DNA of 64,000 nucleotides from the NCBI GenBank assembly GCA_016860985.1, contig BOKM01000001.1, positions 463,462-527,461 of the forward strand, read 5' to 3'. Below, piece after piece: positions 10,292 to 28,170 of this stretch (position 1 is the first letter of the stretch; the number at the start of each line of letters is the position of its first letter). Origin of the DNA: Patescibacteria group bacterium. GTDB lineage: Bacteria; Patescibacteriota; Dojkabacteria; GCA-002793355. A program made the translations under genes and the position numbers. A model generated the notes under the pieces. The model ran no database searches and was not told the DNA's origin. It was given only the letters and a program-made list of their open reading frames with translations.

Positions 10292-10293
10292 AG

Positions 10294-14498: not shown

Positions 14499-15265
14499 TA
14501 TTTTTCGAGATTCAGTTGATATTGATACAATTTTGATTCGATTGTAATTAATTTGTCGTCTACGACTGTAATATCAAGGAGCACCGGTTTATAGCCCACC
14601 TTTTCAAGAAGAAGTTGGTGTACTCCGGCAGGGATATTTTCGTTTATATACGGCGTCGTTCCAACTTGCTTTCCATCTACAGATACAGATACGCCCTGTG
14701 GCAATGCTTTTACAATTAACTGAGCATCTTCGGGTGACCTGTCTTGTGCAGAAATAATTGTATAACTAAAAAGGCTTGAGTCAGGAGCAATGTTCGTTTT
14801 TATAATTGTTGTATTTCCTGGAAATATTTCAAAGCCAAGCGATTGCTCTTTAAAATAATTATTCACGTTATCAACCGCTTGGATAGTAAGCGTGTGCTTA
14901 CCTGCTGGAATATTCTCTCCAGTGAAGGGGGTCTGTCCAAGTGTTTTGCCATCTAGTTGCAGCTGCGTACGAACATATTCAGAAGACACAATCAGCGTGC
15001 CATTCCCTTCTTGAATGGGTGCGAATAATTTTCGTACCGGATCAAGCACGCCACTCACACTAACTAAAACGACGAGCGCAAAAGCAAGAAGAGCAACCTT
15101 TAAACCATATTGTACGAACTTGATACCTTTTCTTGATGCAACACGCGTGGGATAAAGCCCAGCTTCGATTGATTCTGTTACCTGCTTTTGTTGCTGAACT
15201 TTGTAGGTCATTACTCGCTGTTCAGGGACTGATTCTTTTTTTTTGCGTGAACGAAAGAGAGGCAT
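14498..15265 (-). CDS. PEGA-domain protein, membrane anchored
   Basis: One TM helix followed by two PEGA repeats ('IPAGKHTLTIQA', 'IPAGVHQLLLEKVGYKP'). The start overlaps the stop of the upstream DUF4012 gene. Confidence 0.65.
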   Translation of the reverse strand: MPLFRSRKKKESVPEQRVMTYKVQQQKQVTESIEAGLYPTRVASRKGIKFVQYGLKVALLAFALVVLVSVSGVLDPVRKLFAPIQEGNGTLIVSSEYVRTQLQLDGKTLGQTPFTGENIPAGKHTLTIQAVDNVNNYFKEQSLGFEIFPGNTTIIKTNIAPDSSLFSYTIISAQDRSPEDAQLIVKALPQGVSVSVDGKQVGTTPYINENIPAGVHQLLLEKVGYKPVLLDITVVDDKLITIESKLYQYQLNLEK

Positions 15266-15357: not shown

Positions 15358-16689
15358 TTATTTTTTAATCTGTGCACGAAAATCCTGTTCCATCACTTTC
15401 TTTCGATATTTGTTGGCAAAACGATGGGCTTCATCTCTAAGTTCACGCAAATGGAGGTAGCCAATATTTGATTTTTCAACTTTTGTGACTCGCCACTTAC
15501 CCTCGACCTTTTTTAGAAAAAAGTCATTTGGTTTAAAGATTCCTACGATAGGGACATTCTCAAATGGAGTACCTTTGACGGCATCAATAACAGCACCTAC
15601 TTGCCCCTTTCCACCATCGATCAGAAGCAAATCGGGTAATCGCCAGGCTCGCTTGATTCTTCGGCCTAGAATTTCTTTCATCATCCAAAAGTCCGAAATA
15701 CCTGTTGTATATTTAATTCTGAATTTTCGGTACTGATCTTTAGCTAGCTTTCCGCCCTCGCTCACAACCATAGAGCCTACAGTCCATTTTTCCATGATAT
15801 TTGAGATATCGTAGCATTCTATTCGTTCGGCGGAAGGAAGTTCCAAAAATTGCGCTATATCGTCAGCCCGCCGTTTGTACACATCCACCAAGAGGTTCGG
15901 GTTATCAACATACTGGTCAGGAAGAATACTCGCGGTTTCCAATTGATGTAACTTCGAAAGTGTATCTCTAATTTCTTTTGCTTTCTCGTAATCCTCGGTT
16001 TGCGCAAGCATCCTCATCTCTTTCTCTAGCTCCTCGATTGCGGTGGAATATCCTTTTTTTAGAAACATTTCTAAACCAAGAATATTCTTTCTATTTTCCT
16101 GATATTTAGCGATATCTCCACAGGCGCCGGTGCACAAACCAATATGCGCGTACATACAAGCTCGGTGCTGTTTTAATGATTGAGTAAGCTTGGTTTTAGG
16201 ATATTCACAATGAGGGTAAATTCGTCTTAAATGCTTTAGTACTTGGATGACGAGCGAACCATCAGGAAAAGGACCGTAAAAACGAGTCCTTTTCAAACTC
16301 CTTCCATGAACACCAAAAATTTTTGAAAATGTGTATTTCTTACCTTCGAATAAAACATCAAAATCTTGCACCGCAATATATTTATATGACTTATCGTCTT
16401 TTAACGAGATATTATAGTGTGGTTTATACCGTTTAATGAGCTCTGCTTCAAGTAAGAAGGCCTCGATTTCGGAGCGGACTTGAATAATATCGAGGTCAAC
16501 AATCTGCGACACAAGCGCTTCGGTTTTGGGACCTTTGTATGTATCTACGAAATAACTTGAAACACGATTTTTTAAGTTTTTTGCTTTACCAACATAAATA
16601 ATTTTCCGCTTTTCGTTGTAGTAAAGGTAACACCCTGCGGTGGTTGGAAGGTTGGCTAATTTTTTTTGGAGTTTTATTGAGAGTACCAC
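15358..16689 (-). CDS. uvrC: excinuclease ABC subunit C (short form lacking the C-terminal HhH domain)
   Basis: GIY-YIG 'GCYLYYNEKRKIIYVGKAKNLKNRVSSYF', a UVR motif (EDYEKAKEIRDTLSKLHQLE) and an RNaseH-like endonuclease region. At 443 aa, no (HhH)2 tail is present. Confidence 0.85.
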   Translation of the reverse strand: MVLSIKLQKKLANLPTTAGCYLYYNEKRKIIYVGKAKNLKNRVSSYFVDTYKGPKTEALVSQIVDLDIIQVRSEIEAFLLEAELIKRYKPHYNISLKDDKSYKYIAVQDFDVLFEGKKYTFSKIFGVHGRSLKRTRFYGPFPDGSLVIQVLKHLRRIYPHCEYPKTKLTQSLKQHRACMYAHIGLCTGACGDIAKYQENRKNILGLEMFLKKGYSTAIEELEKEMRMLAQTEDYEKAKEIRDTLSKLHQLETASILPDQYVDNPNLLVDVYKRRADDIAQFLELPSAERIECYDISNIMEKWTVGSMVVSEGGKLAKDQYRKFRIKYTTGISDFWMMKEILGRRIKRAWRLPDLLLIDGGKGQVGAVIDAVKGTPFENVPIVGIFKPNDFFLKKVEGKWRVTKVEKSNIGYLHLRELRDEAHRFANKYRKKVMEQDFRAQIKK

Positions 16690-16715
16690 AGAGAATTATA
16701 CTATTTCTCAATTGT

Positions 16716-16994
16716 TTACGAATCTTCGAGTTCTTGCTTGGCTGCTTCCCAATCCATGTTTGGAGTGACTGTGATTTGCAGACTCGTTCCATCGGCATTC
16801 AGTTGCCTTACATCAGTGACAACTTTACAAATTCTGTGTGCAAACTGACAACCCACACATCCCTGATCAGCAAGCACTTTATCTATTGCTGCTGCTTCAT
16901 CGGGAAGAAAGGGTGGTTCTCCTATTCCGACTCGATGAGTATTTTCTTCATTCTCACACGGCATTTTTTCTAAAATTTCCCATTCAGTAGCCAT
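16716..16994 (-). CDS. small hypothetical protein with a C-x32-C-x2-C-x6-C motif
   Basis: 92-aa acidic ORF wedged between uvrA and uvrC on the same strand. Cys at positions 13, 46, 49 and 56 could bind Zn or an Fe-S cluster. Confidence 0.4.
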   Translation of the reverse strand: MATEWEILEKMPCENEENTHRVGIGEPPFLPDEAAAIDKVLADQGCVGCQFAHRICKVVTDVRQLNADGTSLQITVTPNMDWEAAKQELEDS

Positions 16995-16997
16995 GTT

Positions 16998-19900
16998 TTA
17001 CTCCGCAATATCTAACTCTTTAAGCATCTTACCCGTCCAACTCCTTGGATTTCGTCTAATGTCACCTATTGTGCCTGTCGCTACGATTTCTCCACCACCA
17101 GTTCCACCTTCGGGACCTAAATCGATGAGATAGTCAGCTTCCGCGATAAAGTCGAGGTTATGTTCAATTACAAAAACACTATTCCCTGTCGCAACTAAGG
17201 TTTTTAATACTGCTACCAGTTTCTCAATATCTGCAAAATGCAGACCAGTAGTTGGTTCATCAAGGATGTAGATTGTTTTACCTGTCGAACGCCTTCCAAG
17301 TTCTGCTGATAACTTCACTCTTTGTGCCTCTCCACCCGACAACATTGGGGCTGGCTCTCCAAGCTTCAAATAGCCAAGCCCTACTTGCTGAAGCATTTCG
17401 AATTTTTCTCGAATCATCGAGATTTCTGAAAAGAAAGCAGCAGCTTCATCTACCGACATATCCAACACATCTGCAATATTCTTTCCTTTGTACAACACTT
17501 CTAGAACCTCAGACACATATCGCTTACCGTGACAAACATCACAGTCAATATACACATCGGGCATAAACTGCATTTCGATCTTTATCTTACCCTCTCCTTT
17601 ACAGGCTTCACAACGACCACCTTTCAGGTTGAAACTAAAGCGACTTGCGGTGTAACCTCGCACTTTGGAATCCTTTGTTTGAGCAAAAAGTTCTCGAATA
17701 TCGTCGAAAACCTTTGTGTATGTTGCAGGATTACTTCTTGGTGTTCTACCAATTGGCGACTGATCAATGTAAAGGAGCTTGTCAATAACATCCGATACGT
17801 ATAGGTTTCTGTATTCTGTGTCGGGGCTATCTGTTCTCAGACCAAGAGTCTTTTTGATAGCAGGCAACAAGGTTTCCACCACAAGGGAGCTCTTTCCTGA
17901 ACCTGAAACACCAGTTATTGCAACAAATTTTCCGAGCGGAAACTTAACCGTTACATCTTTTAGATTGTGTGTTTTTGCCCCAGAAAGCTCTAAATACCGG
18001 TCAGCTACGCGCATTCGGGCATGTGACGCAAGAGCATCGTTTAATTTTTTGTTCTTACCAAGCCCTAACTTCACGAGTTTTTCGACTTCTTTTGCAATTG
18101 TTTTCTTACCAGCTAAGTACGGGCCAGTTACAGATTCGGGGTTGTCCATAATCTCTTTTGGCGTACCCATAGCAACGATTTTTCCTCCACGATCTCCTGC
18201 ACCCTTACCAAAATCAAGTACAAGATCTGCATTCATCATGGTATCTCTGTCGTGCTCAACAACGATCACAGTATTTCCCAAATCACGAAGATGCTTTAAT
18301 GTCGCGATTAATCGATGTTGATCTCGTGCATGCAGCCCAATCGAAGGTTCATCTAGTACGTAAATTACCCCCGAAAGGCCTGTTCCAATCTGACTCGCAA
18401 GGCGAATTCGCTGTGCTTCTCCACCAGAAAGCGTAGTTGCAGTTCTACTCACGGTTAAGTATTCAAGCCCCACGTCTAATAGAAATTGCGAACGAAGGAG
18501 GATTTCTCGAATTACTGGTTGTGCAATTGTCTGAGCTTTTGAATCAAATTCTTTAATAAATCCCTTGGTCTCATCTGTAAACTCTTTGATGGTTAAATCG
18601 CAAAGCTGGGAGATATTTAGATTATTAATGGTTACCGCAAGCACAATATCTTTAAGCCTTGTTCCTTTACAAGTTGGGCACGTAACCGTACTCATAAACT
18701 TCTCAATTTCGGTTCGAATAAAATCTGAATTTGTTTCTTTATACCTGCGCTCTAAGTTCGGAATTATCCCCTCGTATTTGGCATGAAGCGAGCGTTCTGT
18801 TCCGTCTTGGCTCGAAAAGTACGTTACTTTGTACTTTTGATCTCCCGTTCCGTAAAGAATCAGGTGTAATTTACCCTCAGTAAGCATACTCACTGGCGTA
18901 TGAATCGAAATAGTGTGTGCATCACAGACTAGTTCAAGCAACCTTCTAAAGTAAGAATCTCTCTCAAGCATTTTTGCGTACGGCATGATGCCACCTGCAA
19001 GTATCGAACGCTTTCCGTCGATAATTCCCTCTGTTGATATCTTCTTTATAACGCCAAGTCCATCACATTCAGGGCAGGCACCGTGTGGGGAATTAAAGGA
19101 AAAATCTCTAGGTTCAAGATCAGGAACAGAAATACCGCATTTTTTACAACTTTTGGTAACGCTATAATCGTGGGAAAGTACTGAGGTTGGACGAGCAGGT
19201 ATTCCCGGTTGTGGATCTCTTATTTCTAAAATTCGAACAAAGGTTGGTTGAATTTTAAGTGCGGCCTCAACTGATTGAAATATTCTTGAGCGCATTTCTT
19301 TTAGCGCTTCTTCTGAATCAAAGAGCGTTTTGCTCACACTTAAGGTGTCGACTACTACTTCTATTTCGTGTTGCTTGTACTTGTCGAGCTGTGGCAACAT
19401 TAATTTCAAGTCAATATATTCACCATCAACTCGAACAACATTCCACCCCTGTTTTCGCAAGTTCATAAATACCTGCTCATATTCACCTTTTCTTCCAGAA
19501 ATTGGAACTGCGGTAATCATAAAGCGGAACCCAAATTTTTGAGTATTTTTATCGTTTTCGTATTCGCGTTTTATCTTCTGCAATAAACCATCTACTACCT
19601 GGTCAATTGTTTGGGAGGTAAGTACCGCCCCACATTGTGGACAATGCGCAACACCGACTCTCGCGTACAACAATCGTAGGTAATCATAGATCTCGGTGAT
19701 TGTACCAACAGTCGAACGAGGATTATGTGATACCGTTTTCTGGTCAATAGCTATAGAGGGTGACAATCCTTCAATTTTATCGACATCTGGCTTACGTAGT
19801 TCACCCAAGAATTGCCTTGCATATGCAGATAAGCTCTCCACATATTTTCGCTGGCCTTCGGCATAAATGGTATCCATTGCAAGTGAGCTCTTGCCAGACC

Positions 19901-20000
19901 CCGACAAGCCAGTAAAAACAATCAACTTGTTTTTTGGGATATCGACGTCAATATTCTTGAGATTGTTCTCGCGCGCACCGCGAATCGAGAGAAAGTCCAT
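16998..20000 (-). CDS. uvrA: excinuclease ABC subunit A
   Basis: Two ABC ATPase modules ('GLSGSGKSSLAMDTIYAEGQRKYVESLSAYARQFLG' and 'GVSGSGKSSLV'), zinc-finger Cys pairs and a length of 1000 aa. Confidence 0.95.
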   Translation of the reverse strand: MDFLSIRGARENNLKNIDVDIPKNKLIVFTGLSGSGKSSLAMDTIYAEGQRKYVESLSAYARQFLGELRKPDVDKIEGLSPSIAIDQKTVSHNPRSTVGTITEIYDYLRLLYARVGVAHCPQCGAVLTSQTIDQVVDGLLQKIKREYENDKNTQKFGFRFMITAVPISGRKGEYEQVFMNLRKQGWNVVRVDGEYIDLKLMLPQLDKYKQHEIEVVVDTLSVSKTLFDSEEALKEMRSRIFQSVEAALKIQPTFVRILEIRDPQPGIPARPTSVLSHDYSVTKSCKKCGISVPDLEPRDFSFNSPHGACPECDGLGVIKKISTEGIIDGKRSILAGGIMPYAKMLERDSYFRRLLELVCDAHTISIHTPVSMLTEGKLHLILYGTGDQKYKVTYFSSQDGTERSLHAKYEGIIPNLERRYKETNSDFIRTEIEKFMSTVTCPTCKGTRLKDIVLAVTINNLNISQLCDLTIKEFTDETKGFIKEFDSKAQTIAQPVIREILLRSQFLLDVGLEYLTVSRTATTLSGGEAQRIRLASQIGTGLSGVIYVLDEPSIGLHARDQHRLIATLKHLRDLGNTVIVVEHDRDTMMNADLVLDFGKGAGDRGGKIVAMGTPKEIMDNPESVTGPYLAGKKTIAKEVEKLVKLGLGKNKKLNDALASHARMRVADRYLELSGAKTHNLKDVTVKFPLGKFVAITGVSGSGKSSLVVETLLPAIKKTLGLRTDSPDTEYRNLYVSDVIDKLLYIDQSPIGRTPRSNPATYTKVFDDIRELFAQTKDSKVRGYTASRFSFNLKGGRCEACKGEGKIKIEMQFMPDVYIDCDVCHGKRYVSEVLEVLYKGKNIADVLDMSVDEAAAFFSEISMIREKFEMLQQVGLGYLKLGEPAPMLSGGEAQRVKLSAELGRRSTGKTIYILDEPTTGLHFADIEKLVAVLKTLVATGNSVFVIEHNLDFIAEADYLIDLGPEGGTGGGEIVATGTIGDIRRNPRSWTGKMLKELDIAE

Positions 20001-20045: not shown

Positions 20046-20675
20046 TTATTGGACTCCGGCCTTCTTTAGCTTTGTAATCACAAAATATGTTAATGGTGTT
20101 GCCACTACTTCATATACTACTTTTACGACCCATTGAGTAAGAACCATCGTTACGATTTGTGCCGATGCTAATAGTCCTCCAAATGCGATCCCCAGAAATA
20201 AGATTGTATCTACACCTTCACCGAGCACCGTTGAGGAGATAGTTCTCAACCACAAAAACCTGCCCTTGGTCAATTCCTTGATTTTGTGCATGCTCCAAGC
20301 GTTTAAAAGAGAGCCTCCCAAATAGCCGGAAAATGAAGCAACGAGGATTCTCGGTGCTACACCTAAAATAGCATCAAAGCTGAGCTGTAAATCCCAAAAA
20401 GGAGCAGCAGGCAAGGCTTGGGCAGCAGCGATGGCAAGCACCACAATAAAGTTTGCAACAAAACCAAGTAGAATTGCGAATTTTGCTTTCTGAAATCCAA
20501 ATATCTCCGTCATTACATCTCCAATGATGTAACTTAATGGGAAAACTACTATACCAGCAGGAAGAAAAACGCCACCAAGTCCCACAATTTTTACAGCAAT
20601 TATATTGGCAGCAATCAGACAGGCAATAAATAAAGAGGTCAACCCAACAAAATAACCTGAATACATAATTTGCAA
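20046..20675 (-). CDS. yhhQ: queuosine-precursor (preQ0/preQ1) transporter, YhhQ/DUF165 (VUT) family
   Basis: ~209 aa with 6 TM helices and the YhhQ-like pattern 'IAANIIAVKIV...FPLSYIIGDVMTEIFG...FVANFIV'. TTG start. Divergent from the TGT-like operon. Confidence 0.75.
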   Translation of the reverse strand: MQIMYSGYFVGLTSLFIACLIAANIIAVKIVGLGGVFLPAGIVVFPLSYIIGDVMTEIFGFQKAKFAILLGFVANFIVVLAIAAAQALPAAPFWDLQLSFDAILGVAPRILVASFSGYLGGSLLNAWSMHKIKELTKGRFLWLRTISSTVLGEGVDTILFLGIAFGGLLASAQIVTMVLTQWVVKVVYEVVATPLTYFVITKLKKAGVQ

Positions 20676-20728: not shown

Positions 20729-20757
20729 TTGACTATGGGACCGCACTTCTTTAAAAT
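20729..20757 (+). promoter_or_regulatory. sigma70-like promoter (TTGACT-17 nt-TAAAAT) ending 5 nt before the ATG at 20763 (leaderless)
   Basis: TTGACT at 20729-20734, 17-nt spacer, TAAAAT at 20752-20757, ATG at 20763. No Shine-Dalgarno sequence. Confidence 0.5.
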
Positions 20758-20762
20758 AACGC

Positions 20763-21545
20763 ATGCGCCTTGCGATTATTGCACCAAATGCATATCTGCA
20801 GGATTTTTCAGCTTTTCATAACAACTCATACCATCTTGTTCTTGCACATCGATTCAACTCCGAGCCCGAATACCGTAGTTTTTACATTGAGCAAAGAAAG
20901 AAGACTCACAGTTTTATAATTCTTGATAACGGAGCTTGCGAACTCGGAGAGTCGATTAACAATGGCACACTACTAGAAACTGCCAGTGTCCTTCGTCCTG
21001 ACGTACTTGTTCTTCCCGACGTCTTGCATCAAAGTCAAGCAACAATTGCCAGAACAGAGAAATTCATTGAGTCCTATAAACACCAGAACAAAATAAAGTG
21101 CAAATTGATGGCAGTTGTACAGGGCAAAACAAGAAAGGAGTGGCTCTCAACATTATCTTCCTTTACCTCTAATCCATATATCGATATGATTGGGATTTCG
21201 AGTACAAACGCCGTATACCCGAAGACAAAAAACTACTATACCAGAATCAAAACACTTAGGTATTTGCATCAAAGACAACTTATAGGGAAGAAAAAAATTC
21301 ATATGCTCGGGTTAGATGACTCTGGACACTTCGAATTACGTCATTTCTCAAAATATTCCTTCATCGAAGGAGCAGATTCTAGCGCTCCAGTAGTTCATGG
21401 AGCAAAAGGGATAAAAATTTACAAGAACAAGCGTTACGAAAAGATTCGAACGTATCTACCAAGCGATGCAATCCTCACGAAGGAGCAGGTATTAGCAGTA
21501 AAAGCTAATCTGCAAGTATTTTTTGACATGGCTTCACATGAATAG
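20763..21545 (+). CDS. TGT-like (tRNA/DNA-guanine transglycosylase-like, DpdA-like) minimal TIM-barrel protein, putative
   Basis: Four collinear matches to TGT motifs with TGT-like spacing: 'FIILDNGACE' (cf. ILTDSGGFQ, catalytic Asp), 'LMAVVQGK' (cf. FGIIQGS), 'IHMLGLDD' (cf. LMGVGKPDD) and 'GADSSAPV' (cf. FDCVMPTR). 260 aa, with no CxCxxC...H zinc subdomain. Confidence 0.45.
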   Translation: MRLAIIAPNAYLQDFSAFHNNSYHLVLAHRFNSEPEYRSFYIEQRKKTHSFIILDNGACELGESINNGTLLETASVLRPDVLVLPDVLHQSQATIARTEKFIESYKHQNKIKCKLMAVVQGKTRKEWLSTLSSFTSNPYIDMIGISSTNAVYPKTKNYYTRIKTLRYLHQRQLIGKKKIHMLGLDDSGHFELRHFSKYSFIEGADSSAPVVHGAKGIKIYKNKRYEKIRTYLPSDAILTKEQVLAVKANLQVFFDMASHE

Positions 21546-23292
21546 AAAAATATTTGTATCGGGCGAAGGTGCTCGAGGAGCAGGAAAAACCTCTACGTTA
21601 AATGTTCTACTGCAAGAATCTACGACTCCCACTGCTGTTAACAGGGTAGCCCCAAACATACCTACAGAGCACCTTCTTCTGATTGACACTCATAAAGCGA
21701 CAAGCCCGTTTCACAAGAGAGCGCTCGAAATACATAAACAGTGGGAAGAAGCCGTCAAAACCCCAGGTGAAGGTGCAGAGCGATTATCATGGAAAAAGTT
21801 TGAGCTCGGAATACTACAGCTACGGTATGAATCCGACAGCTATCACGACGCAACTAGCAAAGCGGAGCAAATTTTTCTCGATAGAGATATTGATACAGCT
21901 GTCGTATACTCTGCAGCAGAGATTATTTTATCCAATCCTCACAAATACGATTCGGTACGTTCGCATATTGCGCTACTACACAATCTATGGCAGAAAGTAT
22001 ATTCAGTATGCCAGACAAACGACTGGGACGTGAGCACTTTTCCACACCTTGATACCGAAGATGATGTCTTATCATTAGTTGATTTTTTAAAACAACAACC
22101 CTTAAGGGATATACCCACTAATACCTTTTACTTCTTTACAAAAGATAAGACTGAATCACTAAAAAGGAGCCACACTTTACGTATAGACACTGCACTCGAA
22201 TACAATCTCACCGTAGTACAGCAAGCAACACAAGATATTATCCAACCATTGTACCTCTATTCCTTTCTCATCCGAAAACAATTATTCCCTGAGGCGCAAG
22301 TTCATTATCTCTCTTCAGATGCGCACAACATCAAAGAGCTCGCGAATTTGGTAAAACTACATGTTAATACGACGACGCTTGAGGTTCCAGGCGCAGACCA
22401 TATCCCCGTTAAGCTACGAATACCTTTTAACAAAGACCACTCCCTACCCTCATCCATTGAGACGCTTAGCCAAGTAATATTCGAAAGCACTGTTGGATCA
22501 ACCTTCCCAAGCAAACGAGAAGTACACATTAATGGAGAATCAAATTGTGTTTACAACAATAAGGCACTGTACGAATACGCATCATTACTAGGACTTGGCC
22601 ACATTGAATTCGTCCAAATTCAACGAGAGACATTCTCTGAAACTTGTCCTGTCCACTGGGCGTGTATTGAGTGGCTTACTCCCCAAAGAGATACTGCACG
22701 AATAATTGATCTGACACCTTTTAGAATTAAGCCCTACATTTCCCAACCTTGTAAAGTTACACACAATGGGGATACATACCAACTGACCTCGCTCACACAA
22801 CAGCCTATTGAATTTACTCAAGTAAAGAAAGAAACGTCATTAATTCCAGAAAGAGCCATGGAATTCGCCTATAACGTTGAATATACTTTCCAGGAAGAAT
22901 CGTTACAAGCATTAACACGTGAGGGATATGAATTGTTAGGCCAATCAAACAACGAATCGCAGAATATATTTTTAACTATTAGGTTAGGAAGATTGTTGCA
23001 GAAACAGGAACGCATCCAAGAGGCAGTCGAATTGCTTGAGCGAGCAGTGACCACTTTCCCGCAAAATCTTATACTTGCCAGGGAAGTTGCAAAGTATGTC
23101 ATTGATGGGTACATTAAATTCGTACCACCGTATTTTTATACTTACCTCAGTAACGCAAACCAGATTCTTGAACGAACTACCCAAACAATGCGAGAACATG
23201 ATATTGATGAAACTGAAATCAATGCGTATTATGAGTATAGGAAATTTATTCCACATGCACTTAAGTTAATCACCGAAGAACATGAAAGTTGA
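21538..23292 (+). CDS. P-loop nucleoside/nucleotide-kinase-like domain fused to a ~400-aa uncharacterised Cys-containing, partly TPR-like C-terminal domain
   Basis: N-terminus 'KIFVSGEGARGAGKTST' is a dNK/thymidylate-kinase-type Walker A, followed by 'LDRDIDTAVVY'. The C-terminal region contains 'CVYNN', 'CPVHWACIEW', 'PCKVTHNGDTYQ' and a helical repeat (LERAVTTFPQNLILAREVAKYV). The ATG at 21538 overlaps the upstream stop by 8 nt; the track start is a TTG at 21523. Confidence 0.5.
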   Translation: MNRKIFVSGEGARGAGKTSTLNVLLQESTTPTAVNRVAPNIPTEHLLLIDTHKATSPFHKRALEIHKQWEEAVKTPGEGAERLSWKKFELGILQLRYESDSYHDATSKAEQIFLDRDIDTAVVYSAAEIILSNPHKYDSVRSHIALLHNLWQKVYSVCQTNDWDVSTFPHLDTEDDVLSLVDFLKQQPLRDIPTNTFYFFTKDKTESLKRSHTLRIDTALEYNLTVVQQATQDIIQPLYLYSFLIRKQLFPEAQVHYLSSDAHNIKELANLVKLHVNTTTLEVPGADHIPVKLRIPFNKDHSLPSSIETLSQVIFESTVGSTFPSKREVHINGESNCVYNNKALYEYASLLGLGHIEFVQIQRETFSETCPVHWACIEWLTPQRDTARIIDLTPFRIKPYISQPCKVTHNGDTYQLTSLTQQPIEFTQVKKETSLIPERAMEFAYNVEYTFQEESLQALTREGYELLGQSNNESQNIFLTIRLGRLLQKQERIQEAVELLERAVTTFPQNLILAREVAKYVIDGYIKFVPPYFYTYLSNANQILERTTQTMREHDIDETEINAYYEYRKFIPHALKLITEEHES

Positions 23293-23794
23293 TCAAGCAA
23301 AACTTGGAGTAGGTACAATCTGTTACCTACACTCAAACGACTCTTACTTACTAGGCGAAAAAAAGTACGGTGGCGCACAAGGTAAAGTTAATGGGTTTGG
23401 TGGCAAGATCGAAACGACAGACCAATCAATCTATGATGCAGTTAAGAGGGAATTTCGTGAAGAAACATCAATCCAACTCAACGCACCCAAGTATTGTGGC
23501 ATTATCGAAATTTTTAAGAACGAGACGAGAAAAGCAATTTTTTATCTGTTTAAAGCAGATGACTTTATCGGCCAACCTCAAGAATCTGAGGAGATGAAAG
23601 TGTACTGGGTGAAAAATACTGAGGTCCCTTTCGAAAAAATGTGGGCATCAGATGCATTATGGCTTCCACTCTTTCTTAAAAATGACAATATACGTGTAAA
23701 ACTTTATTTTCAGGAAGGCAATGACAAAGCAGATCGAATGGAAGTAACCTTTAATGCGACTCTAGATGAAACATATCACGAAAACTTTATCTAA
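23282..23794 (+). CDS. Nudix hydrolase
   Basis: Nudix box 'GGKIETTDQSIYDAVKREFREETSI' (GX5EX7REUXEEXGU-like). 170 aa. The start overlaps the upstream stop (ATGAAAGTTGA). Confidence 0.75.
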   Translation: MKVDQAKLGVGTICYLHSNDSYLLGEKKYGGAQGKVNGFGGKIETTDQSIYDAVKREFREETSIQLNAPKYCGIIEIFKNETRKAIFYLFKADDFIGQPQESEEMKVYWVKNTEVPFEKMWASDALWLPLFLKNDNIRVKLYFQEGNDKADRMEVTFNATLDETYHENFI

Positions 23795-24668
23795 GGTTCC
23801 ATCCTATTTGATAGAAACTATTGAGAAGGAATCTATTCCCTACCTCGAGCAAGTTCGTGTAAAGGAATATTCTAAACGTCTTCCACCACTTGAAGGGCAA
23901 AGAGTTGCAGTAATCCCTTGGAGTGGTGGGTTAGACTCAACAACCAGTCTTATCATGGCGATAGAAGCAGGCATCTCAATCAGGACCATATTTCTGAATT
24001 ACGGACAACCTTACATAAAGAAAGAATTGCTCGCAACCAATAAGTTAGAAAAACTGATACGCGCAAAATATCCGGAAGCAGATTGGACCGAGCATTACAT
24101 AGTCGATGTGAGCTTCATAGACCAGCTTGTGAAATCGAAATTCAACGGAGAATGGGGACATATTTTCCCAATGCGTAACTTTCTCATCCTTGAAGAATCA
24201 GCCGCGATAGCACAACCAAATAGATACACAGAAGTTTGGTTTAGCAGTGTGCAAGGAGAAATGCCTTATTCAGGAGGAGACAAGAGTGTGGTATTTCTCA
24301 CCTATATGAAAGAAATTTTTGGAAAACGGAATATTAATTTAACCACGCCGCTCGTCGGCCTCACAAAGGCAGATATGGTTCAATGGGCTATTGCCCAACT
24401 AGATAGGTTCCGTATTATTCGACATACGATATCCTGCTTCAACGGAGAAGGAGATTCCCACTGTGGTGAATGTCAAGCTTGTTTCAATCGTGCAGTAGCA
24501 TTTTTCGCTGCAAATCAACTCCCACTTAGCGGAGTCCCTTACCACAAAAACGCATTGCAAAATTTTGGAGAAAATTATATTCGTAAACTTGCTAAAGAAA
24601 GTTATTACTCCCCAACAAGAAGAAGCCAGTTACAGCAGTTCATAAACTTTATAAGCCAACAAACATGA
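23766..24668 (+). CDS. QueC-family PP-loop ATPase (7-cyano-7-deazaguanine synthase homologue) with a ~50-aa N-terminal extension
   Basis: Collinear with B. subtilis QueC: PP-loop 'VAVIPWSGGLDSTT' (SGGxDS), 'NYGQ' (cf. DYGQRH), 'PMRNFLIL' (cf. PGRNLLFL) and a C-terminal zinc site 'SCFNGEGDSHCGECQAC' (cf. CYNG...GCGECPAC). Confidence 0.8.
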   Translation: MKHITKTLSKVPSYLIETIEKESIPYLEQVRVKEYSKRLPPLEGQRVAVIPWSGGLDSTTSLIMAIEAGISIRTIFLNYGQPYIKKELLATNKLEKLIRAKYPEADWTEHYIVDVSFIDQLVKSKFNGEWGHIFPMRNFLILEESAAIAQPNRYTEVWFSSVQGEMPYSGGDKSVVFLTYMKEIFGKRNINLTTPLVGLTKADMVQWAIAQLDRFRIIRHTISCFNGEGDSHCGECQACFNRAVAFFAANQLPLSGVPYHKNALQNFGENYIRKLAKESYYSPTRRSQLQQFINFISQQT

Positions 24669-25534
24669 TTAGCTTTGTTATACCCTCTTATCAGCGAGCA
24701 GACGGTGCAATCTTTATGATACTTAATTTGTTGCACCAAACAGTTTTCACAAAATATCCAACAGAACTAATACTGTCTATTGATGAAACTGATACCCAAA
24801 AAGAATTGTATGCAAACTACATCATTCAAGCAAAAAAAATTGCGCAAGAAATCGTACCTGCATGTAACATATCACTCCTGGTTAATCAGACAAAAGGCTT
24901 AGTCGCAGCAAAGAATAACGCTGTGCGAGCTTCTAAATACGAGTTCATCATGATGCTCGATGATGATCTTGCTGCAGTAGATAATTACGTTGAAGCCTTG
25001 TTAGCCGACATGAAGGCTGCCCCTTCAGTAGGTGCTATTTCAGGATTTATAGTTTCATACCTTTCTGCTATATCTCACACTCAACCCTCCGATTTCATTG
25101 AAGAGGTACCTAAGGAATCGCATCTACAGACACTAAAACTGGACTCCAACAATGGTGCTTGGAGAACATTTTTCGGCAAGAAAGAGCAGGTCATGGATTG
25201 GAGTAGAATCAATAAGAATATTCCTTCTACGGTTCGCTATACCATGGACTATTTTGTCAATTCGTATCTCTTTAGAAGAAGCGCATACAACAAAATAGGT
25301 GGATACTCAAATGATTTAAATTCTAAGACATCTGCCCACGAGGAGGTCGATTTCACTTATAGAATGAGAAAAGCTGGCTACCAACTTCTTTTTAATCCAT
25401 TTGTCCAGATGTGGCATATTACCGTCGGCCACGGAGGTATCTACAAAGGAGCAGATTACAATGAGAGTAAAGAAATCTTAGAAAAAGAGTATAAAGAAAG
25501 TATACCTCTATTTGTTCAGTCGATTTCCAGGTAG
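24665..25534 (+). CDS. family 2 glycosyltransferase
   Basis: 'ISFVIPSYQRADG' N-terminal GT-A start and the 'FIMMLDDDL' DxD motif. ATGA overlap with the QueC-like stop. Confidence 0.7.
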   Translation: MISFVIPSYQRADGAIFMILNLLHQTVFTKYPTELILSIDETDTQKELYANYIIQAKKIAQEIVPACNISLLVNQTKGLVAAKNNAVRASKYEFIMMLDDDLAAVDNYVEALLADMKAAPSVGAISGFIVSYLSAISHTQPSDFIEEVPKESHLQTLKLDSNNGAWRTFFGKKEQVMDWSRINKNIPSTVRYTMDYFVNSYLFRRSAYNKIGGYSNDLNSKTSAHEEVDFTYRMRKAGYQLLFNPFVQMWHITVGHGGIYKGADYNESKEILEKEYKESIPLFVQSISR

Positions 25535-25577: not shown

Positions 25578-26372
25578 ATGAAATCCCCGTATGTTCAGGG
25601 TTTGAAACAGGGGTTCGCCGAACTTTCAGTCTACTCTCTCGATTTCCTGTTTGGGTTATTCCAAGCAGTTGCGCTTGTCGGCTTTGAAATACTCCTGTGG
25701 ACTTTTGTCCTCCCTGCTGATAACCAAACTGCCCTATTTGAACGCACCTCTTATTTTTTGCTAGCCAATGGCATTGCCTTGGTAATCGGAGGTGCCCGAT
25801 ATCGCTTTGCCAGAGATTTATCACTCGTCATCAAAGAGGGAACGTTGTCGCACTACCTTCTTAAACCGATTAATCCTGTACTTTACATCTATTCAGAACA
25901 TGTTGGAGGAAAAGGACCAGATTTTATGATCGGATTAATTTTTATAATCATGGGAACTTTGTGGATACCGACCTTTACGCTCGTTAAGCTACCATTGTTG
26001 TTGATAACGCTGGCTGCAGCTCTCATAAATACAATCTCACTAAACGTTATCGCAGGGGCTGTAGCCTTTTGGACAACCGAGGCAAACGGTATTAAGAATG
26101 CCTTTGCGCAAACAACGCGATTATTTAACGGACAGCAAGTTCCCATCAATCTTTTCATGGAAATGATCAGTCCTTTTTGGGCGCAATTCTTGTATATTCT
26201 CCCCTTCGCAAGTGTTGCATATACGCCAACGCACATAGTTATTGCCAAAACATTCGACGCAATAGATTTTAGATTTATCATCGCTTCGATTATCTGGGCG
26301 TTCATTCTCCCGTTACTCGCAACACTAATTTGGAATAGAGGACTCAAACGATATGAGGGGACTGGTCTCTAA
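25578..26372 (+). CDS. ABC-2-type transporter permease (6 TM)
   Basis: 264-aa polytopic membrane protein. First of two permeases preceding an ABC ATPase in the same operon. Confidence 0.55.
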   Translation: MKSPYVQGLKQGFAELSVYSLDFLFGLFQAVALVGFEILLWTFVLPADNQTALFERTSYFLLANGIALVIGGARYRFARDLSLVIKEGTLSHYLLKPINPVLYIYSEHVGGKGPDFMIGLIFIIMGTLWIPTFTLVKLPLLLITLAAALINTISLNVIAGAVAFWTTEANGIKNAFAQTTRLFNGQQVPINLFMEMISPFWAQFLYILPFASVAYTPTHIVIAKTFDAIDFRFIIASIIWAFILPLLATLIWNRGLKRYEGTGL

Positions 26373-27171
26373 CCTACGATTCTACTTTCGAGTACTTGCA
26401 AAAAAGATTTTGTTTGCCTGGCAGATAGAAACGGCTTACGCAGGGAACACGATAGGTGAGCTTTTTTCAACCATTTTTTACAACATTACCTTTATTATTT
26501 TTATCGATATTGTACTGCGAAAATATAAGCTGCTCGCTGGCTACTCTTTCAACGATATGCTGGTACTTGTTTTTGTGACACAGATTGTATTCTATACAGG
26601 ACTAACTATTACTTACGATAGCATGTCAAAATTCGTACAATCTGTAAGAGATGGTATTTTTGATACGTACCTTCTCAAACCGATGTCTGTTTTCTTTCAA
26701 GTGATGACCTTAAGCATCAGGCCGTTTTCTGGGCTGTTCTTTTCTGTTCCACCATTGCTAATTTATGTAGTGCTCATCATTAAAAATCAAGCATTTCATC
26801 CCGAACCTTTTGGGCTAACGGTTGGCTTACTTGGAATGTTGGTTGGGATTCTCTACCTTCATTTTTATCGATTTACGTTTGCGATGTTCGTGTTTAAAAC
26901 AAAACAGGTAAAAAACCTACTCAAAACACTTGACCTACTTGGGGATGCTGGATCTTTTCCCTACGAGGCTTATGTTGAACCGTTTAGAACAATTGTCTTT
27001 TTTATTGCGCCATTTCTTGCTGCGGCTGCCATTCCTGCAACCTACTTCTTAAACAAAACGACTTCTCTTTGGCCATTTGTTATTCAGATTGGACTCATGC
27101 TATTTTTTATGACTACTGCACTACTTTTATGGAGAAAAGGATTAAAAGAATATGAATCAATTTCATCTTAA
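26353..27171 (+). CDS. ABC-2-type transporter permease (6 TM)
   Basis: 272-aa polytopic membrane protein. The start overlaps the previous permease stop. Confidence 0.55.
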   Translation: MRGLVSNLRFYFRVLAKKILFAWQIETAYAGNTIGELFSTIFYNITFIIFIDIVLRKYKLLAGYSFNDMLVLVFVTQIVFYTGLTITYDSMSKFVQSVRDGIFDTYLLKPMSVFFQVMTLSIRPFSGLFFSVPPLLIYVVLIIKNQAFHPEPFGLTVGLLGMLVGILYLHFYRFTFAMFVFKTKQVKNLLKTLDLLGDAGSFPYEAYVEPFRTIVFFIAPFLAAAAIPATYFLNKTTSLWPFVIQIGLMLFFMTTALLLWRKGLKEYESISS

Positions 27172-27186
27172 TTATTCACCCCTATT

Positions 27187-28170
27187 ATGAAACCAGTTAT
27201 CACTACACAAAACCTCAAAAAGGATTTTCTTGTTCCTGCACGACAGTCATTTTGGCAAAGACTGTTTACTCCAAAATACGAAGAAGTCACGGCTGTCGAC
27301 AACATTTCTTTTCACATTATGGAAGGCGAATCTGTTGCACTTCTTGGACCGAATGGCGCGGGCAAAACAACAACCATGAAAATGATGACCGGCATACTTT
27401 ATCCAACAGCCGGAAGTTGCAATGTGCTTGGATACAACCCTAATAAACGCAACCCTGCGATGCTTAAAAACATTGGCTTTGTAATGGGCAATAAAAGCAC
27501 GCTTTCTATGGACCTTTCCCCTATGCAAAACTACGAGCTTAACAGAGTTATTTACGATATTGATGCCACAAGATTTTATAACACGATAGACGAACTTGGG
27601 GAACTTCTTGAGGTAAAAGATCATTTATATAAACAAACACGAAAACTCTCGCTTGGACAAAGAATGAAAGCGGAAATGATAAACTCGATACTACACAGAC
27701 CGAAGATTCTCTTTCTAGACGAACCGACCATTGGACTAGACATCTCCTCTCAGAACAATATTCGCACATTTCTTAAAAAAGTTAACAAAGAGCTAGGAAC
27801 GACGATTATCCTTACGAGCCACAATATGGAAGATATTTCACAAGTTTCTGAAAGAGTACTTATAATCAATCAAGGCAAACTCGTTTACGACAACTCTCTC
27901 GAAATGCTGAAGCGGACTTTTTCAACAAAAAAATACATCAAGGTTATTGTTACAACAAAAGGAAACTCCCGCTCCTTTGAGAAAAAGTTTAAGCCATTTG
28001 GTGACATTGTCAGCTCTGGTAAAGATTTCGTGACGCTCGAAATTGATAAAAACAGACAGGCACCCATTATTGCAGCAATACTCAACATGGAGCACGTTCA
28101 TGATATCGATATTGAGGGGGTACCACTCACAAAAATCATAGAATCGATTTTCAAGAAAAAACTTGATTAG
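27187..28170 (+). CDS. ABC transporter ATP-binding protein with a C-terminal accessory (DUF4162-like) domain
   Basis: Walker A 'GPNGAGKTTTMKMM', signature 'LSLGQRMK', Walker B 'ILFLDEPTIGLD' and H-loop 'TSHNMED'. The C-terminal ~100-aa extension is typical of ABC-2 exporter ATPases. Confidence 0.9.
   Translation: MKPVITTQNLKKDFLVPARQSFWQRLFTPKYEEVTAVDNISFHIMEGESVALLGPNGAGKTTTMKMMTGILYPTAGSCNVLGYNPNKRNPAMLKNIGFVMGNKSTLSMDLSPMQNYELNRVIYDIDATRFYNTIDELGELLEVKDHLYKQTRKLSLGQRMKAEMINSILHRPKILFLDEPTIGLDISSQNNIRTFLKKVNKELGTTIILTSHNMEDISQVSERVLIINQGKLVYDNSLEMLKRTFSTKKYIKVIVTTKGNSRSFEKKFKPFGDIVSSGKDFVTLEIDKNRQAPIIAAILNMEHVHDIDIEGVPLTKIIESIFKKKLD

What the first reader, a model, noticed from the sequence alone, without database searches (positions are those of the whole stretch)
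20763..21545. Minimal TGT-fold protein lacking the zinc subdomain (DpdA-like?)
Four TGT motifs are preserved in order and with TGT-like spacing. They include the substrate-Asp motif (ILDNGA vs LTDSGG) and the QG motif (AVVQG vs GIIQG). The protein is only 260 aa and contains no Cys-rich zinc site. That is shorter than bacterial Tgt and arcTGT, and similar to the small phage DpdA-like enzymes. Its position as the first gene of the operon, next to a QueC homologue, supports a guanine-exchange role on DNA or RNA rather than canonical tRNA position 34.
Basis: inference. Interest (0 to 1): 0.6.

Follow-up and report, generated by a model that had tools for sequence, protein, structure and literature searches.

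The report
Minimal DpdA3-type transglycosylase in Patescibacteria operon
The 260-residue protein is a stripped-down relative of the enzymes that swap guanine for 7-deazaguanine bases, of a type known so far only from phages, and here it heads a conserved five-gene operon in ultra-small bacteria that may build a heavily modified guanine for DNA.

Summary
The ORF at 20763-21545 (+) is real, 260 aa, and has no zinc site.

**Family.** It is homologous to the phage DpdA3 subfamily (Flavobacterium phage immuto_2-6A, Campylobacter phage CP220). D55, D86 and D205 are invariant across 120-160 family representatives. D205 aligns with the TGT nucleophile Asp.

**What is new: the context.** The host is a Patescibacteria bacterium. 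The gene opens an overlapping five-gene operon:
- DpdA3-like
- thymidylate-kinase-like/Cys-His-Asp/TPR protein
- MutT-like NUDIX
- divergent QueC
- GT2 glycosyltransferase

This order is kept in eight non-redundant loci. Precursor supply varies between a YhhQ transporter and QueD+QueE.

**Mechanism.** A similar trio of NTP hydrolase, DpdA3 and P-loop kinase flanks DpdA3 in the two phages examined whose guanine is 100% replaced. I therefore favour (about 0.45) a T4-like route at the nucleoside or nucleotide level. The published post-replicative DNA-insertion model gets about 0.33. No activity is shown.

The parts
20763..21545 (+). DpdA3-type minimal TGT-fold transglycosylase (260 aa, (beta/alpha)8 barrel, no zinc subdomain). 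Putative catalytic residues are D55, D86 and D205, plus Q120, H180 and N249.
21538..23292 (+). 584-aa three-part protein; its ATG at 21538 overlaps the upstream stop by 8 nt. The N-terminal domain is thymidylate-kinase-like (EGxRGxGKT P-loop, invariant D115-R116-D117). The middle domain has invariant N336-C337...H373-W374...D391 and may have a papain/transglutaminase-like topology. The C-terminus is TPR-like and helical.
23282..23794 (+). MutT-like NUDIX hydrolase (170 aa; GGKIE...REFREET box). It overlaps the upstream gene by 11 nt.
23766..24668 (+). Divergent QueC paralogue (300 aa). It keeps SGGLDS, FPxRN and C(x)8CxxCxxC. It replaces canonical YPDC with GGDK and loses the His of YxQxHxxE. 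It has family-specific N- and C-terminal extensions.
24665..25534 (+). GT-A fold family-2 glycosyltransferase (289 aa), with a secondary match to the TET-associated DNA-base glycosyltransferase family. It overlaps the upstream gene by 4 nt.
20046..20675 (-). Divergently transcribed YhhQ/Vut_1 queuosine-precursor transporter, the likely source of the 7-deazaguanine base. In other lineages QueD+QueE take its place.
25578..28170 (+). ABC-2 type transporter (two permeases and an ATPase) directly downstream. It is present only in this lineage and absent from the 55%-identical syntenic locus L007, so it is probably not part of the core module.

Best explanation
The 260-aa protein is a cellular (Patescibacteria) member of the DpdA3 branch of the tRNA-guanine transglycosylase superfamily. 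It is a bare (beta/alpha)8 barrel that keeps the TGT catalytic constellation: D205 as the ribosyl-accepting nucleophile, with D55 and D86 binding the base and acting as acid/base. It has lost the zinc and nucleic-acid-binding add-ons.

I propose that it catalyses guanine to 7-deazaguanine base exchange as the central step of a five-gene pathway, and that the pathway follows phage T4 hypermodification logic at the nucleoside or nucleotide level:
1. The MutT-like NUDIX converts dGTP to dGMP.
2. The DpdA3-like enzyme swaps guanine for a 7-deazaguanine base. The base is imported by YhhQ or made by QueD/QueE, and is tailored by the divergent QueC, an ATP-dependent carboxylate amidating/ligating enzyme.
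3. The thymidylate-kinase-like domain re-phosphorylates the modified dNMP so that the polymerase can incorporate it.
4. The GT2 enzyme glycosylates the modified base.

What is shown: the fold, family membership, conservation of the Asp triad, the operon structure and its conservation.
What is inferred: the base-exchange activity, the identity of the base, the nucleotide (rather than polymer) substrate, every enzymatic step of the neighbours, and DNA as the final destination.

Sub-claim confidences:
- TGT-fold, DpdA3 family: about 0.9.
- 7-deazaguanine base exchange: about 0.75.
- Nucleoside/nucleotide-level substrate: about 0.45.
For: Fold and family: (weak hits to DUF6610/DpdA4, DpdA and TGT are the recurrent Pfam signals among 120 members).

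Catalytic residues.

Operon: four successive overlapping gene junctions. The same five genes occur in the same order in 8 non-redundant loci whose DpdA3-like proteins are 35-55% identical. These are the window, L007, L008, L009, L002 (Ca. Daviesbacteria), L003 (Saccharimonadia), L068 and L069.

Link to 7-deazaguanine: YhhQ lies next to the module in 4 of the 8 loci, QueD+QueE in 2 and neither in 2. Phage relatives sit beside FolE, QueC, QueD and QueE.

Nucleotide-level clues:
- The N-terminal domain of gene 2 matches mainly thymidylate kinases in the PDB (21 of 27 matches, including the top nine; best E 6e-4) and matches Pfam Thymidylate_kin weakly in 3 of 4 orthologues.
- The NUDIX is MutT-like.
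- SurE nucleotidase and a His_Phos_1 phosphatase flank the module in two lineages.
- Campylobacter phage CP220 has an HD-phosphohydrolase+P-loop protein, then DpdA3, then 'thymidylate kinase'.
- Flavobacterium phage immuto_2-6A has an NTP pyrophosphohydrolase, DpdA3 and 'thymidylate kinase' within 2.7 kb.
- The two phage kinases are homologous to each other (E 4e-16).
- The Patescibacteria clade is the next-nearest relative of these two reference DpdA3 proteins.

Literature:
- DpdA3 phages show 100% G replacement, whereas tested DNA-acting DpdAs reach at most about 30%. The ADG nucleoside was seen in infected cells. DpdA3 activity has never been reconstituted (PMC10516641).
- A modified-dGTP route was originally proposed for Campylobacter phages (PMC6884629).

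QueC paralogue: it lacks the Tyr of YPDC, which E. coli QueC needs for preQ0 synthesis (PMC13329287; alignment). The inserted base is therefore probably not plain preQ0.
Against: - No TGT-superfamily enzyme is known to act on free nucleosides or nucleotides (my knowledge).
- The published view is that DpdA3 inserts the base into DNA after replication.
- In 38 of the 51 non-redundant loci the gene sits beside a family-A DNA polymerase. No P-loop kinase family recurred among the neighbours. MazG-like NTPase clusters were seen in 5 loci each. The trio is therefore not universal.
- bDpdA needs an ATPase partner, DpdB (abstract of PMC10164549, plus my knowledge). The P-loop protein here could play that role on DNA instead of being a kinase.
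- The kinase assignment rests on sub-threshold profile hits.
- The structure model of gene 2 is poor (pLDDT 60).
- Global rerouting of dGTP in a free-living cell has no precedent.
- The GT2-to-TAGT similarity is marginal: 29.8 bits against a 27.5 cut-off, over the N-terminal half only.
Confidence: 0.45

Rival explanations
1. Post-replicative DNA transglycosylase, the current literature model for DpdA3. The protein flips out guanines in double-stranded genomic DNA and replaces them with a 7-deazaguanine base supplied by YhhQ or QueD/E and QueC-like. The P-loop/TPR protein acts as an ATP-dependent helper analogous to DpdB. The GT2 decorates the inserted base. The NUDIX is accessory. The result is an epigenetic self-mark or anti-restriction mark on the Patescibacteria chromosome.
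For: The best structural match is the DNA preQ0 insertase DpdA. PMC10516641 assigns DpdA3 this role and calls all 7-deazaguanine DNA modifications post-replicative. Most viral homologues lie next to DNA polymerase and have no P-loop kinase among their neighbours. All characterised TGT-superfamily nucleic-acid enzymes act on polymers (my knowledge).
Against: It gives no role to the strictly co-conserved MutT-like NUDIX and thymidylate-kinase-like domain. The protein lacks the zinc subdomain and the extra elements of DpdA and TGT: 260 aa against 413 and 375. Tested DNA-acting DpdAs modify at most about 30% of G, whereas DpdA3 phages reach 100%. DpdA3 could not be shown active in the E. coli DNA-insertion model.
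Confidence: 0.33
2. An RNA/tRNA enzyme: a minimal replacement for canonical Tgt. It would insert a salvaged queuosine precursor, or a new glycosylated derivative, into tRNA in reduced-genome Patescibacteria.
For: A YhhQ precursor transporter is adjacent. No canonical Tgt is encoded in the 64-kb window. Glycosylated queuosines exist in eukaryotic tRNA (my knowledge).
Against: The closest sequence relatives are phage proteins tied to DNA modification. The MutT-like NUDIX, thymidylate-kinase-like domain and divergent QueC have no place in tRNA-Q synthesis. The tRNA-binding zinc and C-terminal regions are missing. Only 64 kb of a contig of about 1.05 Mb was searched for Tgt, so its absence is unproven.
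Confidence: 0.07
3. A small-molecule pathway. The operon would make a free 7-deazapurine nucleoside or nucleotide, possibly glycosylated. The product could be an antiviral or antibiotic nucleotide analogue or a signalling molecule, exported in this lineage by the adjacent ABC-2 transporter and never put into nucleic acid.
For: The operon combines a kinase-like domain, NUDIX, GT2 and QueC-like protein. An ABC-2 exporter lies directly downstream in the window. 7-deazapurine nucleoside antibiotics and glycosylated preQ0 natural products exist (my knowledge). Phosphatases flank the module in two lineages.
Against: The transporter is absent from the other module-bearing loci. Known 7-deazapurine nucleoside pathways attach the base with a phosphoribosyltransferase, not a TGT-fold enzyme (my knowledge). 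All phage relatives occur in DNA-replication and DNA-modification contexts.
Confidence: 0.1
4. A protein-deazaguanylation system related to type IV CBASS (Cap9 QueC-like plus Cap10 TGT-like) or QatABCD. The QueC paralogue would ligate a 7-deazaguanine to a protein N-terminus, and the TGT-fold protein would bind or process that conjugate.
Against: There is no CD-NTase, effector, QatA, QatB or QatD in the operon. PADLOC finds nothing for the TGT-like, P-loop or GT2 proteins. Cap10 scores below DpdA, TGT and ArcTGT and level with generic aldolases. The module sits among housekeeping genes, not in a defence island.
Confidence: 0.05

Closest known systems
Phage DpdA3 subfamily (Cui, Hutinet et al. 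[quoted passage not shown]
   Same: Same length (about 260 aa), same zinc-less minimal barrel and the same motifs (ILDN, PD, VVQG, DxSxPVVHG). Identity is 26-32% with significant E-values. Both are associated with 7-deazaguanine supply genes, and both have NTP-hydrolase and P-loop-kinase neighbours.
   Different: This protein is encoded on a bacterial chromosome among housekeeping genes, not in a phage. It forms a separate tight clade: 172-291 bits within the clade, at most 105 bits to anything else. Its partners are unique: a three-domain kinase-like/Cys-His-Asp/TPR protein, a remodelled QueC and a GT2. DpdA3 itself has no demonstrated activity.
Bacterial DpdA of the Dpd restriction-modification system (PDB 7ui4; PMC10164549)
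Bacterial tRNA-guanine transglycosylase Tgt (PF01702; Z. mobilis and E. coli)
   Same: (beta/alpha)8 barrel with six collinear strand-end motifs. The nucleophile Asp and the QG motif align.
   Different: There is no zinc subdomain and no insertion between the first two Asp motifs. The protein is about 115 residues shorter. It is undetectable by the Pfam TGT model. Its genomic context is unrelated to queA, queG or yajC.
Phage T4 hydroxymethylcytosine pathway (dCTPase gp56, dCMP hydroxymethylase gp42, dNMP kinase gp1, alpha/beta-glucosyltransferases)
   Same: Functional analogy only. Both have the same gene-set logic: dNTP pyrophosphatase, base-modifying enzyme, dedicated dNMP kinase and glycosyltransferase.
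   Different: The proteins are unrelated and the target base is different (G, not C). The modifying step here would be base exchange rather than addition. The system is cellular, not viral. The analogy is an inference from my knowledge of T4.

Membership tests
TGT superfamily (tRNA-guanine transglycosylase fold) | (beta/alpha)8 barrel most similar to TGT, ArcTGT or DpdA structures | tested here: met
TGT superfamily (tRNA-guanine transglycosylase fold) | Catalytic nucleophile Asp (E. coli D264, Z. mobilis D280) in the D-x-x-x-P motif after the last strand | tested here: met
   D205 (GADSSAPV) aligns with D264 (MFDCVMPT) in three hhalign runs. The alignment statistics are weak (best P 0.0012). 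D205 is invariant in 160 representatives.
TGT superfamily (tRNA-guanine transglycosylase fold) | Substrate-binding and general acid/base Asp residues (E. coli D89 and D143) | tested here: inconclusive
   D86 aligns with D143 in the global hhalign, but the local run is offset. D55 (ILDNG) against D89 (LTDSGG) rests on motif and strand order only. Both residues are invariant. No structural superposition at residue level was available.
TGT superfamily (tRNA-guanine transglycosylase fold) | Zinc-binding CxCxxC...H subdomain | tested here: not met
   The protein has only two Cys (C59, C113) and no such motif. E. coli Tgt has CDCYTC...H.
TGT superfamily (tRNA-guanine transglycosylase fold) | Match to Pfam PF01702 at or above the gathering score | tested here: not met
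   The window protein gives no hit. Only 2 of 120 family members give weak TGT hits (best E 0.022).
DpdA3 subfamily | Significant sequence homology to the reference DpdA3 proteins of phages with 100% 7-deazaguanine replacement | tested here: met
   BLASTP against immuto26A_65 gives 32% identity over 205 aa, E 3e-23. tblastn against CP220 gp056 gives E 2e-10, and against related Campylobacter phages 5e-12 to 5e-9. PHROG 19058 matches at 1.5e-16 over the full length.
DpdA3 subfamily | Genomic association with 7-deazaguanine synthesis or salvage genes | tested here: met
   A QueC paralogue lies in the operon and YhhQ is adjacent. Orthologous loci have QueD+QueE.
DpdA3 subfamily | Virus-encoded | tested here: not met
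   The gene lies between uvrA and tyrS/uvrB, on sequence that also carries tmRNA and uvrC. The proteins are recorded on a 1.05-Mb contig and annotated in a Patescibacteria MAG. The 55%-identical orthologue is syntenic.
DpdA3 subfamily | Presence of a 7-deazaguanine derivative in the DNA of the carrier | not testable with these tools
   This needs nucleoside LC-MS/MS or long-read signal analysis of the organism's DNA.
Bacterial Dpd system (bDpdA) | DpdB/DpdC partners and a dpdD-K restriction cluster, plus a Pfam DpdA (PF23859) match | tested here: not met
   The window protein gives no PF23859 hit. The operon partners are kinase-like, NUDIX, QueC-like and GT2. PADLOC finds no Dpd components among the five operon proteins. 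The rest of the window was not scanned with Dpd models.
Type IV CBASS Cap10 / Cap9 pair | A neighbouring CD-NTase and effector, plus Cap10-type remodelled pocket | tested here: not met

The most novel reading that the evidence does not exclude
A cellular lineage (several classes of Patescibacteria) carries a T4-style pre-replicative hypermodification pathway. A zinc-less TGT-fold enzyme would exchange guanine for a tailored 7-deazaguanine on free deoxynucleosides or deoxynucleotides. A dedicated kinase would feed the product to the replicative polymerase, and a glycosyltransferase would then sugar-coat it. A large fraction of genomic G in a bacterium would then be a glycosylated 7-deazaguanine. 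This would be the first TGT-superfamily enzyme acting on monomers. [quoted passage not shown]
Probability: 0.2. Interest if true: 0.9.

Novelty: new variant of a known kind. Interest (0 to 1): 0.62.

Why it matters
**Untested family.** DpdA3 is the only DpdA branch linked to complete replacement of guanine, and it has never been shown to work in vitro or in E. coli.

**New context.** A chromosomal clade locked into an operon with a dNTP pyrophosphatase, a dNMP-kinase-like domain, a remodelled QueC and a glycosyltransferase has two consequences:
- It extends 7-deazaguanine chemistry beyond phages and the Dpd island into the reduced genomes of Patescibacteria. There it may act as an anti-phage or anti-restriction mark that depends on a scavenged precursor.
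- It gives a concrete, testable reason to reopen whether these minimal enzymes act on DNA or on the nucleotide pool.

**Possible new base.** The pathway would also predict a new DNA base, a glycosylated or amide-linked 7-deazaguanine.

**Annotation.** The result corrects database annotation. The protein is 'hypothetical' in NCBI, and its phage relatives are variously labelled NadR, polynucleotide kinase or integrase.

Tried and rejected
- **Sequence-only detection failed.**
  - Pfam, NCBIfam and PADLOC gave nothing meaningful for the 260-aa protein.
  - phmmer and two profile searches against PDB sequences found no TGT.
  - hhalign against E. coli Tgt, alone or with a low-diversity profile of 120 gammaproteobacterial Tgt sequences, gave only weak statistics (probability 0.1-19%). 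I use these runs only as consistent alignments of D205, D86 and Q120.
It returned only sequences 83-100% identical to E. coli Tgt, so the profile gained little.
- **Gene 2 structure.**
  - The four-sequence model was poor (pLDDT 60).
  - Its Foldseek search gave only insignificant TPR matches.
  - The papain/transglutaminase-like reading of the middle domain therefore rests on the invariant N-C...H-W...D pattern and the predicted helix-then-sheet topology alone. No Pfam model supports it.
- **Isoelectric point as a proxy for nucleic-acid binding.** It was uninformative: the family median is 5.8 and E. coli Tgt is 6.0.
- **Riboswitch.** There is no preQ1 or other riboswitch in the 87-nt divergent intergenic region.
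- **Promoters and terminators.** The scan was not above shuffled expectation.
- **Viral locus retrieval.** The search for related loci with the 120-sequence alignment failed for lack of a conserved stretch. The 18-sequence alignment worked, but it biases the viral sample towards one sub-branch.
- **Literature.** Crippen et al. 2019 could not be read. Its content is cited second-hand.
- **Rejected readings.** I rejected a prophage or mobile-island origin, because the flanks are syntenic housekeeping genes and GC content is uniform. I rejected the ABC-2 transporter as a core component, because it is absent from the other module loci.
Full report
**Observation.** The ORF at 20763-21545 (+) exists as described: it starts with ATG and encodes 260 aa. 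It contains IILDNGACE (53-60), LVLPDV (82-87), MAVVQGK (115-121) and GADSSAPVVHG (202-213). I compared it with E. coli Tgt, fetched and translated here. Two further collinear motifs correspond as well: MIGIS with GYAVGG, and IHMLG with YLMGVG. Six consecutive strand-end motifs therefore appear in TGT order. The protein has two cysteines and no CxCxxC...H zinc motif. An exact copy and an 85%-identical copy exist in public assemblies. A 55%-identical orthologue lies in a syntenic position in another genome. It is a real, conserved gene.

**Family and fold.** Standard sequence models do not recognise the protein: Pfam, NCBIfam, PADLOC, and the PDB by phmmer or by profile. PHROGs places it in two phage families of unknown function, phrog_19058 (1.5e-16, full length) and phrog_20335.

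A word-indexed search of 5.8 billion proteins found only 18 relatives. An exhaustive HMM search of 1.84 billion cluster representatives found 5093 clusters at E<=1e-3, and the 150 best-scoring are mostly 245-280 aa. Across 120-160 representatives D55, D86, D205 and N249 are invariant. N56, E60, P85, R161, H180 and G183 are at least 90% conserved.

The AlphaFold2 model is confident (pLDDT 95.4, pTM 0.92) and is a (beta/alpha)8 barrel.
- In Foldseek the 18 best hits are all TGT or DpdA.
- Scanning 120 family members one by one against Pfam, the commonest weak hits are DUF6610 (the DpdA4 family), DpdA and TGT.

[quoted passage not shown] Pairwise BLASTP with the latter gives 32% identity over 205 aa, E 3e-23. 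These are the reference members of the DpdA3 subfamily defined by Cui, Hutinet and colleagues in 2023 (PMC10516641).

**Catalytic residues.** hhalign against E. coli Tgt has weak statistics but is consistent. D205 aligns with D264, the nucleophile equivalent to Z. mobilis D280, in three runs. D86 aligns with D143 and Q120 with Q190. D55 against D89 was not recovered by alignment, because TGT has a long insertion there, so this pair rests on motif and strand order. I could not obtain a residue-level structural superposition.

**Host and context.** The window carries tmRNA, uvrA, uvrC, uvrB and tyrS. The operon's proteins are recorded on a 1.05-Mb contig and are annotated in a 'Patescibacteria group bacterium' MAG, where the 260-aa protein is 'hypothetical'. 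GC content is uniform. No canonical Tgt is encoded in the 64-kb window; the rest of the genome could not be checked.

The gene is first in a run of five genes whose ends overlap by 8, 11, 29 and 4 nt:

| Gene | Coordinates | Product |
|---|---|---|
| 1 | 20763-21545 | DpdA3-like transglycosylase |
| 2 | 21538-23292 | 584-aa multidomain protein |
| 3 | 23282-23794 | MutT-like NUDIX |
| 4 | 23766-24668 | divergent QueC |
| 5 | 24665-25534 | GT2 glycosyltransferase |

A YhhQ/Vut_1 queuosine-precursor transporter is transcribed divergently upstream.

**The module is conserved.** The same five genes, in the same order, occur in eight non-redundant loci whose DpdA3-like proteins are 35-55% identical:
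- the window
- L007
- L008 (labelled an uncultured Gammaproteobacteria MAG)
- L009
- L002 (Ca. Daviesbacteria)
- L003 (Saccharimonadia)
- L068
- L069

Only the precursor supply changes. YhhQ is present in the window, L007, L008 and L068. QueD+QueE are present in L009 and L069. Neither is adjacent in L002 and L003. A SurE nucleotidase (L068) and a His_Phos_1 phosphatase (L069) flank the module in two lineages. The ABC-2 transporter downstream in the window is absent elsewhere. The six module-type proteins compared by all-against-all BLASTP (the window, L007, L008, L009, L002, L003) form a tight clade. They are also the next-best relatives of the two reference phage DpdA3 proteins.

**The partners.**
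- *Gene 2, N-terminal domain.* A profile of the orthologues matches mainly thymidylate kinases in the PDB (21 of 27 matches, including the top nine; best E 6e-4). It shares the FEGxxGxGK P-loop and a PDLTFY...LKR segment. Three of four orthologues give sub-threshold Pfam Thymidylate_kin hits. An invariant D-R-D recalls the Tmk DR(Y/H) motif (plus my knowledge).
- *Gene 2, middle region.* It has invariant N336-C337, H373-W374 and D391. The Cys lies at the start of a predicted helix, followed by strands that carry the His and Asp. I read this tentatively as a papain/transglutaminase-like triad.
- *Gene 2, C-terminus.* It is TPR-like. The structure model as a whole is poor (pLDDT 60).
- *QueC paralogue.* It keeps SGGLDS, FPxRN and the C(x)8CxxCxxC zinc site. 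It replaces YPDC with GGDK and loses the His of YxQxHxxE. It also carries conserved extensions of about 45 and 50 residues. In E. coli QueC the Tyr of YPDC is needed for preQ0 formation (PMC13329287). This enzyme therefore probably does something other than standard CDG-to-preQ0 conversion. It is retained even where a YhhQ transporter could import preQ0.
- *GT2.* It has a marginal secondary match to the TET-associated DNA-base glycosyltransferase family (29.8 bits against a 27.5 cut-off) and to a PHROG of glucosyl-HMC glucosyltransferases.

**Mechanism.** All known TGT-family nucleic-acid enzymes exchange a guanine base through a covalent Asp-ribosyl intermediate (my knowledge). The preserved Asp triad and the 7-deazaguanine supply genes make base exchange the likely chemistry here (about 0.75). 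The open question is the substrate.

The literature assigns DpdA3 to post-replicative insertion into DNA. The same paper reports three things that sit uneasily with that. DpdA3 phages replace 100% of G, against at most about 30% for tested DpdAs. The ADG nucleoside was found in infected cells. DpdA3 could not be shown active in the E. coli model. Earlier, a modified-dGTP route had been proposed for the Campylobacter phages (PMC6884629).

Three observations made here bear on this:
- The Patescibacteria module always includes a MutT-like NUDIX and a thymidylate-kinase-like domain.
- In CP220, DpdA3 lies between an HD-phosphohydrolase/P-loop fusion and a 'thymidylate kinase'. In immuto_2-6A it lies within 2.7 kb of an NTP pyrophosphohydrolase and a 'thymidylate kinase'. 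The two phage kinases are homologous to each other (E 4e-16).
- Phosphatases flank the module in two lineages.

This gene set mirrors the T4 logic of dNTP pyrophosphatase, base-modifying enzyme, dNMP kinase and glycosyltransferase. I therefore favour base exchange on a deoxynucleoside or deoxynucleotide, then re-phosphorylation, polymerase incorporation and glycosylation (about 0.45). Post-replicative DNA insertion gets about 0.33.

The counter-evidence is substantial:
- No TGT-fold enzyme is known to use monomers.
- 38 of the 51 non-redundant loci, mostly from a pattern-biased IMG/VR sample, place the gene beside a family-A DNA polymerase. No P-loop kinase family recurred among the neighbours, and MazG-like clusters were seen in 5 loci each.
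- The P-loop protein could instead be a DpdB-like ATPase helper.
- The kinase assignment is sub-threshold.

tRNA modification, a free nucleoside product, and a Cap9/Cap10-like protein deazaguanylation system are less likely, for the reasons given under the rival explanations.

**Comparison and novelty.** At the protein level this is a new, cellular member of the DpdA3 subfamily, which is known but biochemically uncharacterised. It meets the fold, homology and context criteria. It fails the zinc-site and Pfam-threshold criteria of canonical TGT, and it is not virus-encoded. It is not a bDpdA or Dpd-island member, and it is not a Cap10.

At the system level, the five-gene Patescibacteria operon was not found in the literature I could search. 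No paper combined 7-deazaguanine with Patescibacteria in a relevant way, or DpdA with thymidylate kinase. The recent QueC-family survey does not mention Nudix, glycosyltransferase, DpdA or YhhQ partners. I rate it a new variant of a known kind.

**Verdict.** The added value is threefold: the precise family (DpdA3), the conserved cellular operon, and a testable argument that this minimal branch may work on the nucleotide pool.

Noticed in passing
window 10291-10699 (-): A complete tmRNA gene (Rfam RF00023, 92 bits). ARAGORN did not report it, and it found no tRNA in the whole 64 kb.
   Followed up: no
window 15358-20000 (-) and 31203-33257 (-); L009 945-5409 and 17398-18225: In the window and in L007 the module sits among nucleotide-excision-repair genes (uvrC, uvrA, and uvrB a few genes downstream). 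In the unrelated locus L009 it has mutL and uvrB upstream and an OGG glycosylase downstream. This may be conserved Patescibacteria synteny or a functional link to DNA repair.
   Followed up: partly
window 21538-23292, residues about 300-400 of the 584-aa protein: The middle domain has invariant S-x-G-x-x-F-P-S, G-x-x-N-C, P-V-H-W and R-x-x-D-x-x-P-F. The Cys starts a predicted helix and the His and Asp lie on the following strands. This is a possible papain/transglutaminase-like Cys-His-Asp enzyme fused to a kinase-like domain. No database model recognises it.
   Followed up: partly
L004 8729-9403 and L005 470-1216: Two contigs that carry no five-gene module encode a Vut_1/YhhQ-type precursor transporter next to their DpdA3. 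L004 looks phage-derived (QueC, Vut_1, DpdA3, family-A DNA polymerase). L005 is a 5-kb fragment with only Vut_1 and DpdA3 recognised. This suggests a mobile element can carry its own 7-deazaguanine base importer.
   Followed up: no
viral loci L021-L067 (IMG/VR): Recurrent neighbours of viral DpdA3, besides a family-A DNA polymerase with an N-terminal UDG-like region (38 of the 51 non-redundant loci), FolE, QueC, QueD and QueE, are a GARS_A-type ATP-grasp protein (13 loci), GroES (14 loci) and a DUF3987 primase/helicase (20 loci). The ATP-grasp enzyme could be another tailoring ligase for a 7-deazaguanine carboxylate.
   Followed up: no
L019 5932-6720 (Bacillus phage BSTP12) and relatives BSTP5, BSTP10: DpdA3-like genes of Bacillus phages are annotated in GenBank as 'NadR trifunctional protein', 'polynucleotide kinase' or 'integrase/recombinase'. 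These appear to be mis-annotations of a transglycosylase-fold protein that lies directly upstream of DNA polymerase I.
   Followed up: partly
window 25578-28170 (+): An ABC-2 type transporter (two ABC2_membrane_6 permeases and an ATPase) follows the GT2 gene after a 43-nt gap, in this lineage only. Whether it exports a product of the operon is unknown.
   Followed up: partly
window 20729-20757 (+): The best promoter-like match upstream of the operon (TTGACT-17-TAAAAT, 10 of 12) ends only 5 nt before the ATG at 20763. That would imply a nearly leaderless transcript. The scan as a whole was not above shuffled expectation, and no riboswitch was found in the 87-nt divergent intergenic region.
   Followed up: partly
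window 11523-15265 (-): A 991-aa DUF4012 protein with a weak epimerase match, followed by a 255-aa PEGA-domain protein. The pair is conserved in the syntenic locus L007. They are probably cell-envelope proteins unrelated to the finding.
   Followed up: no
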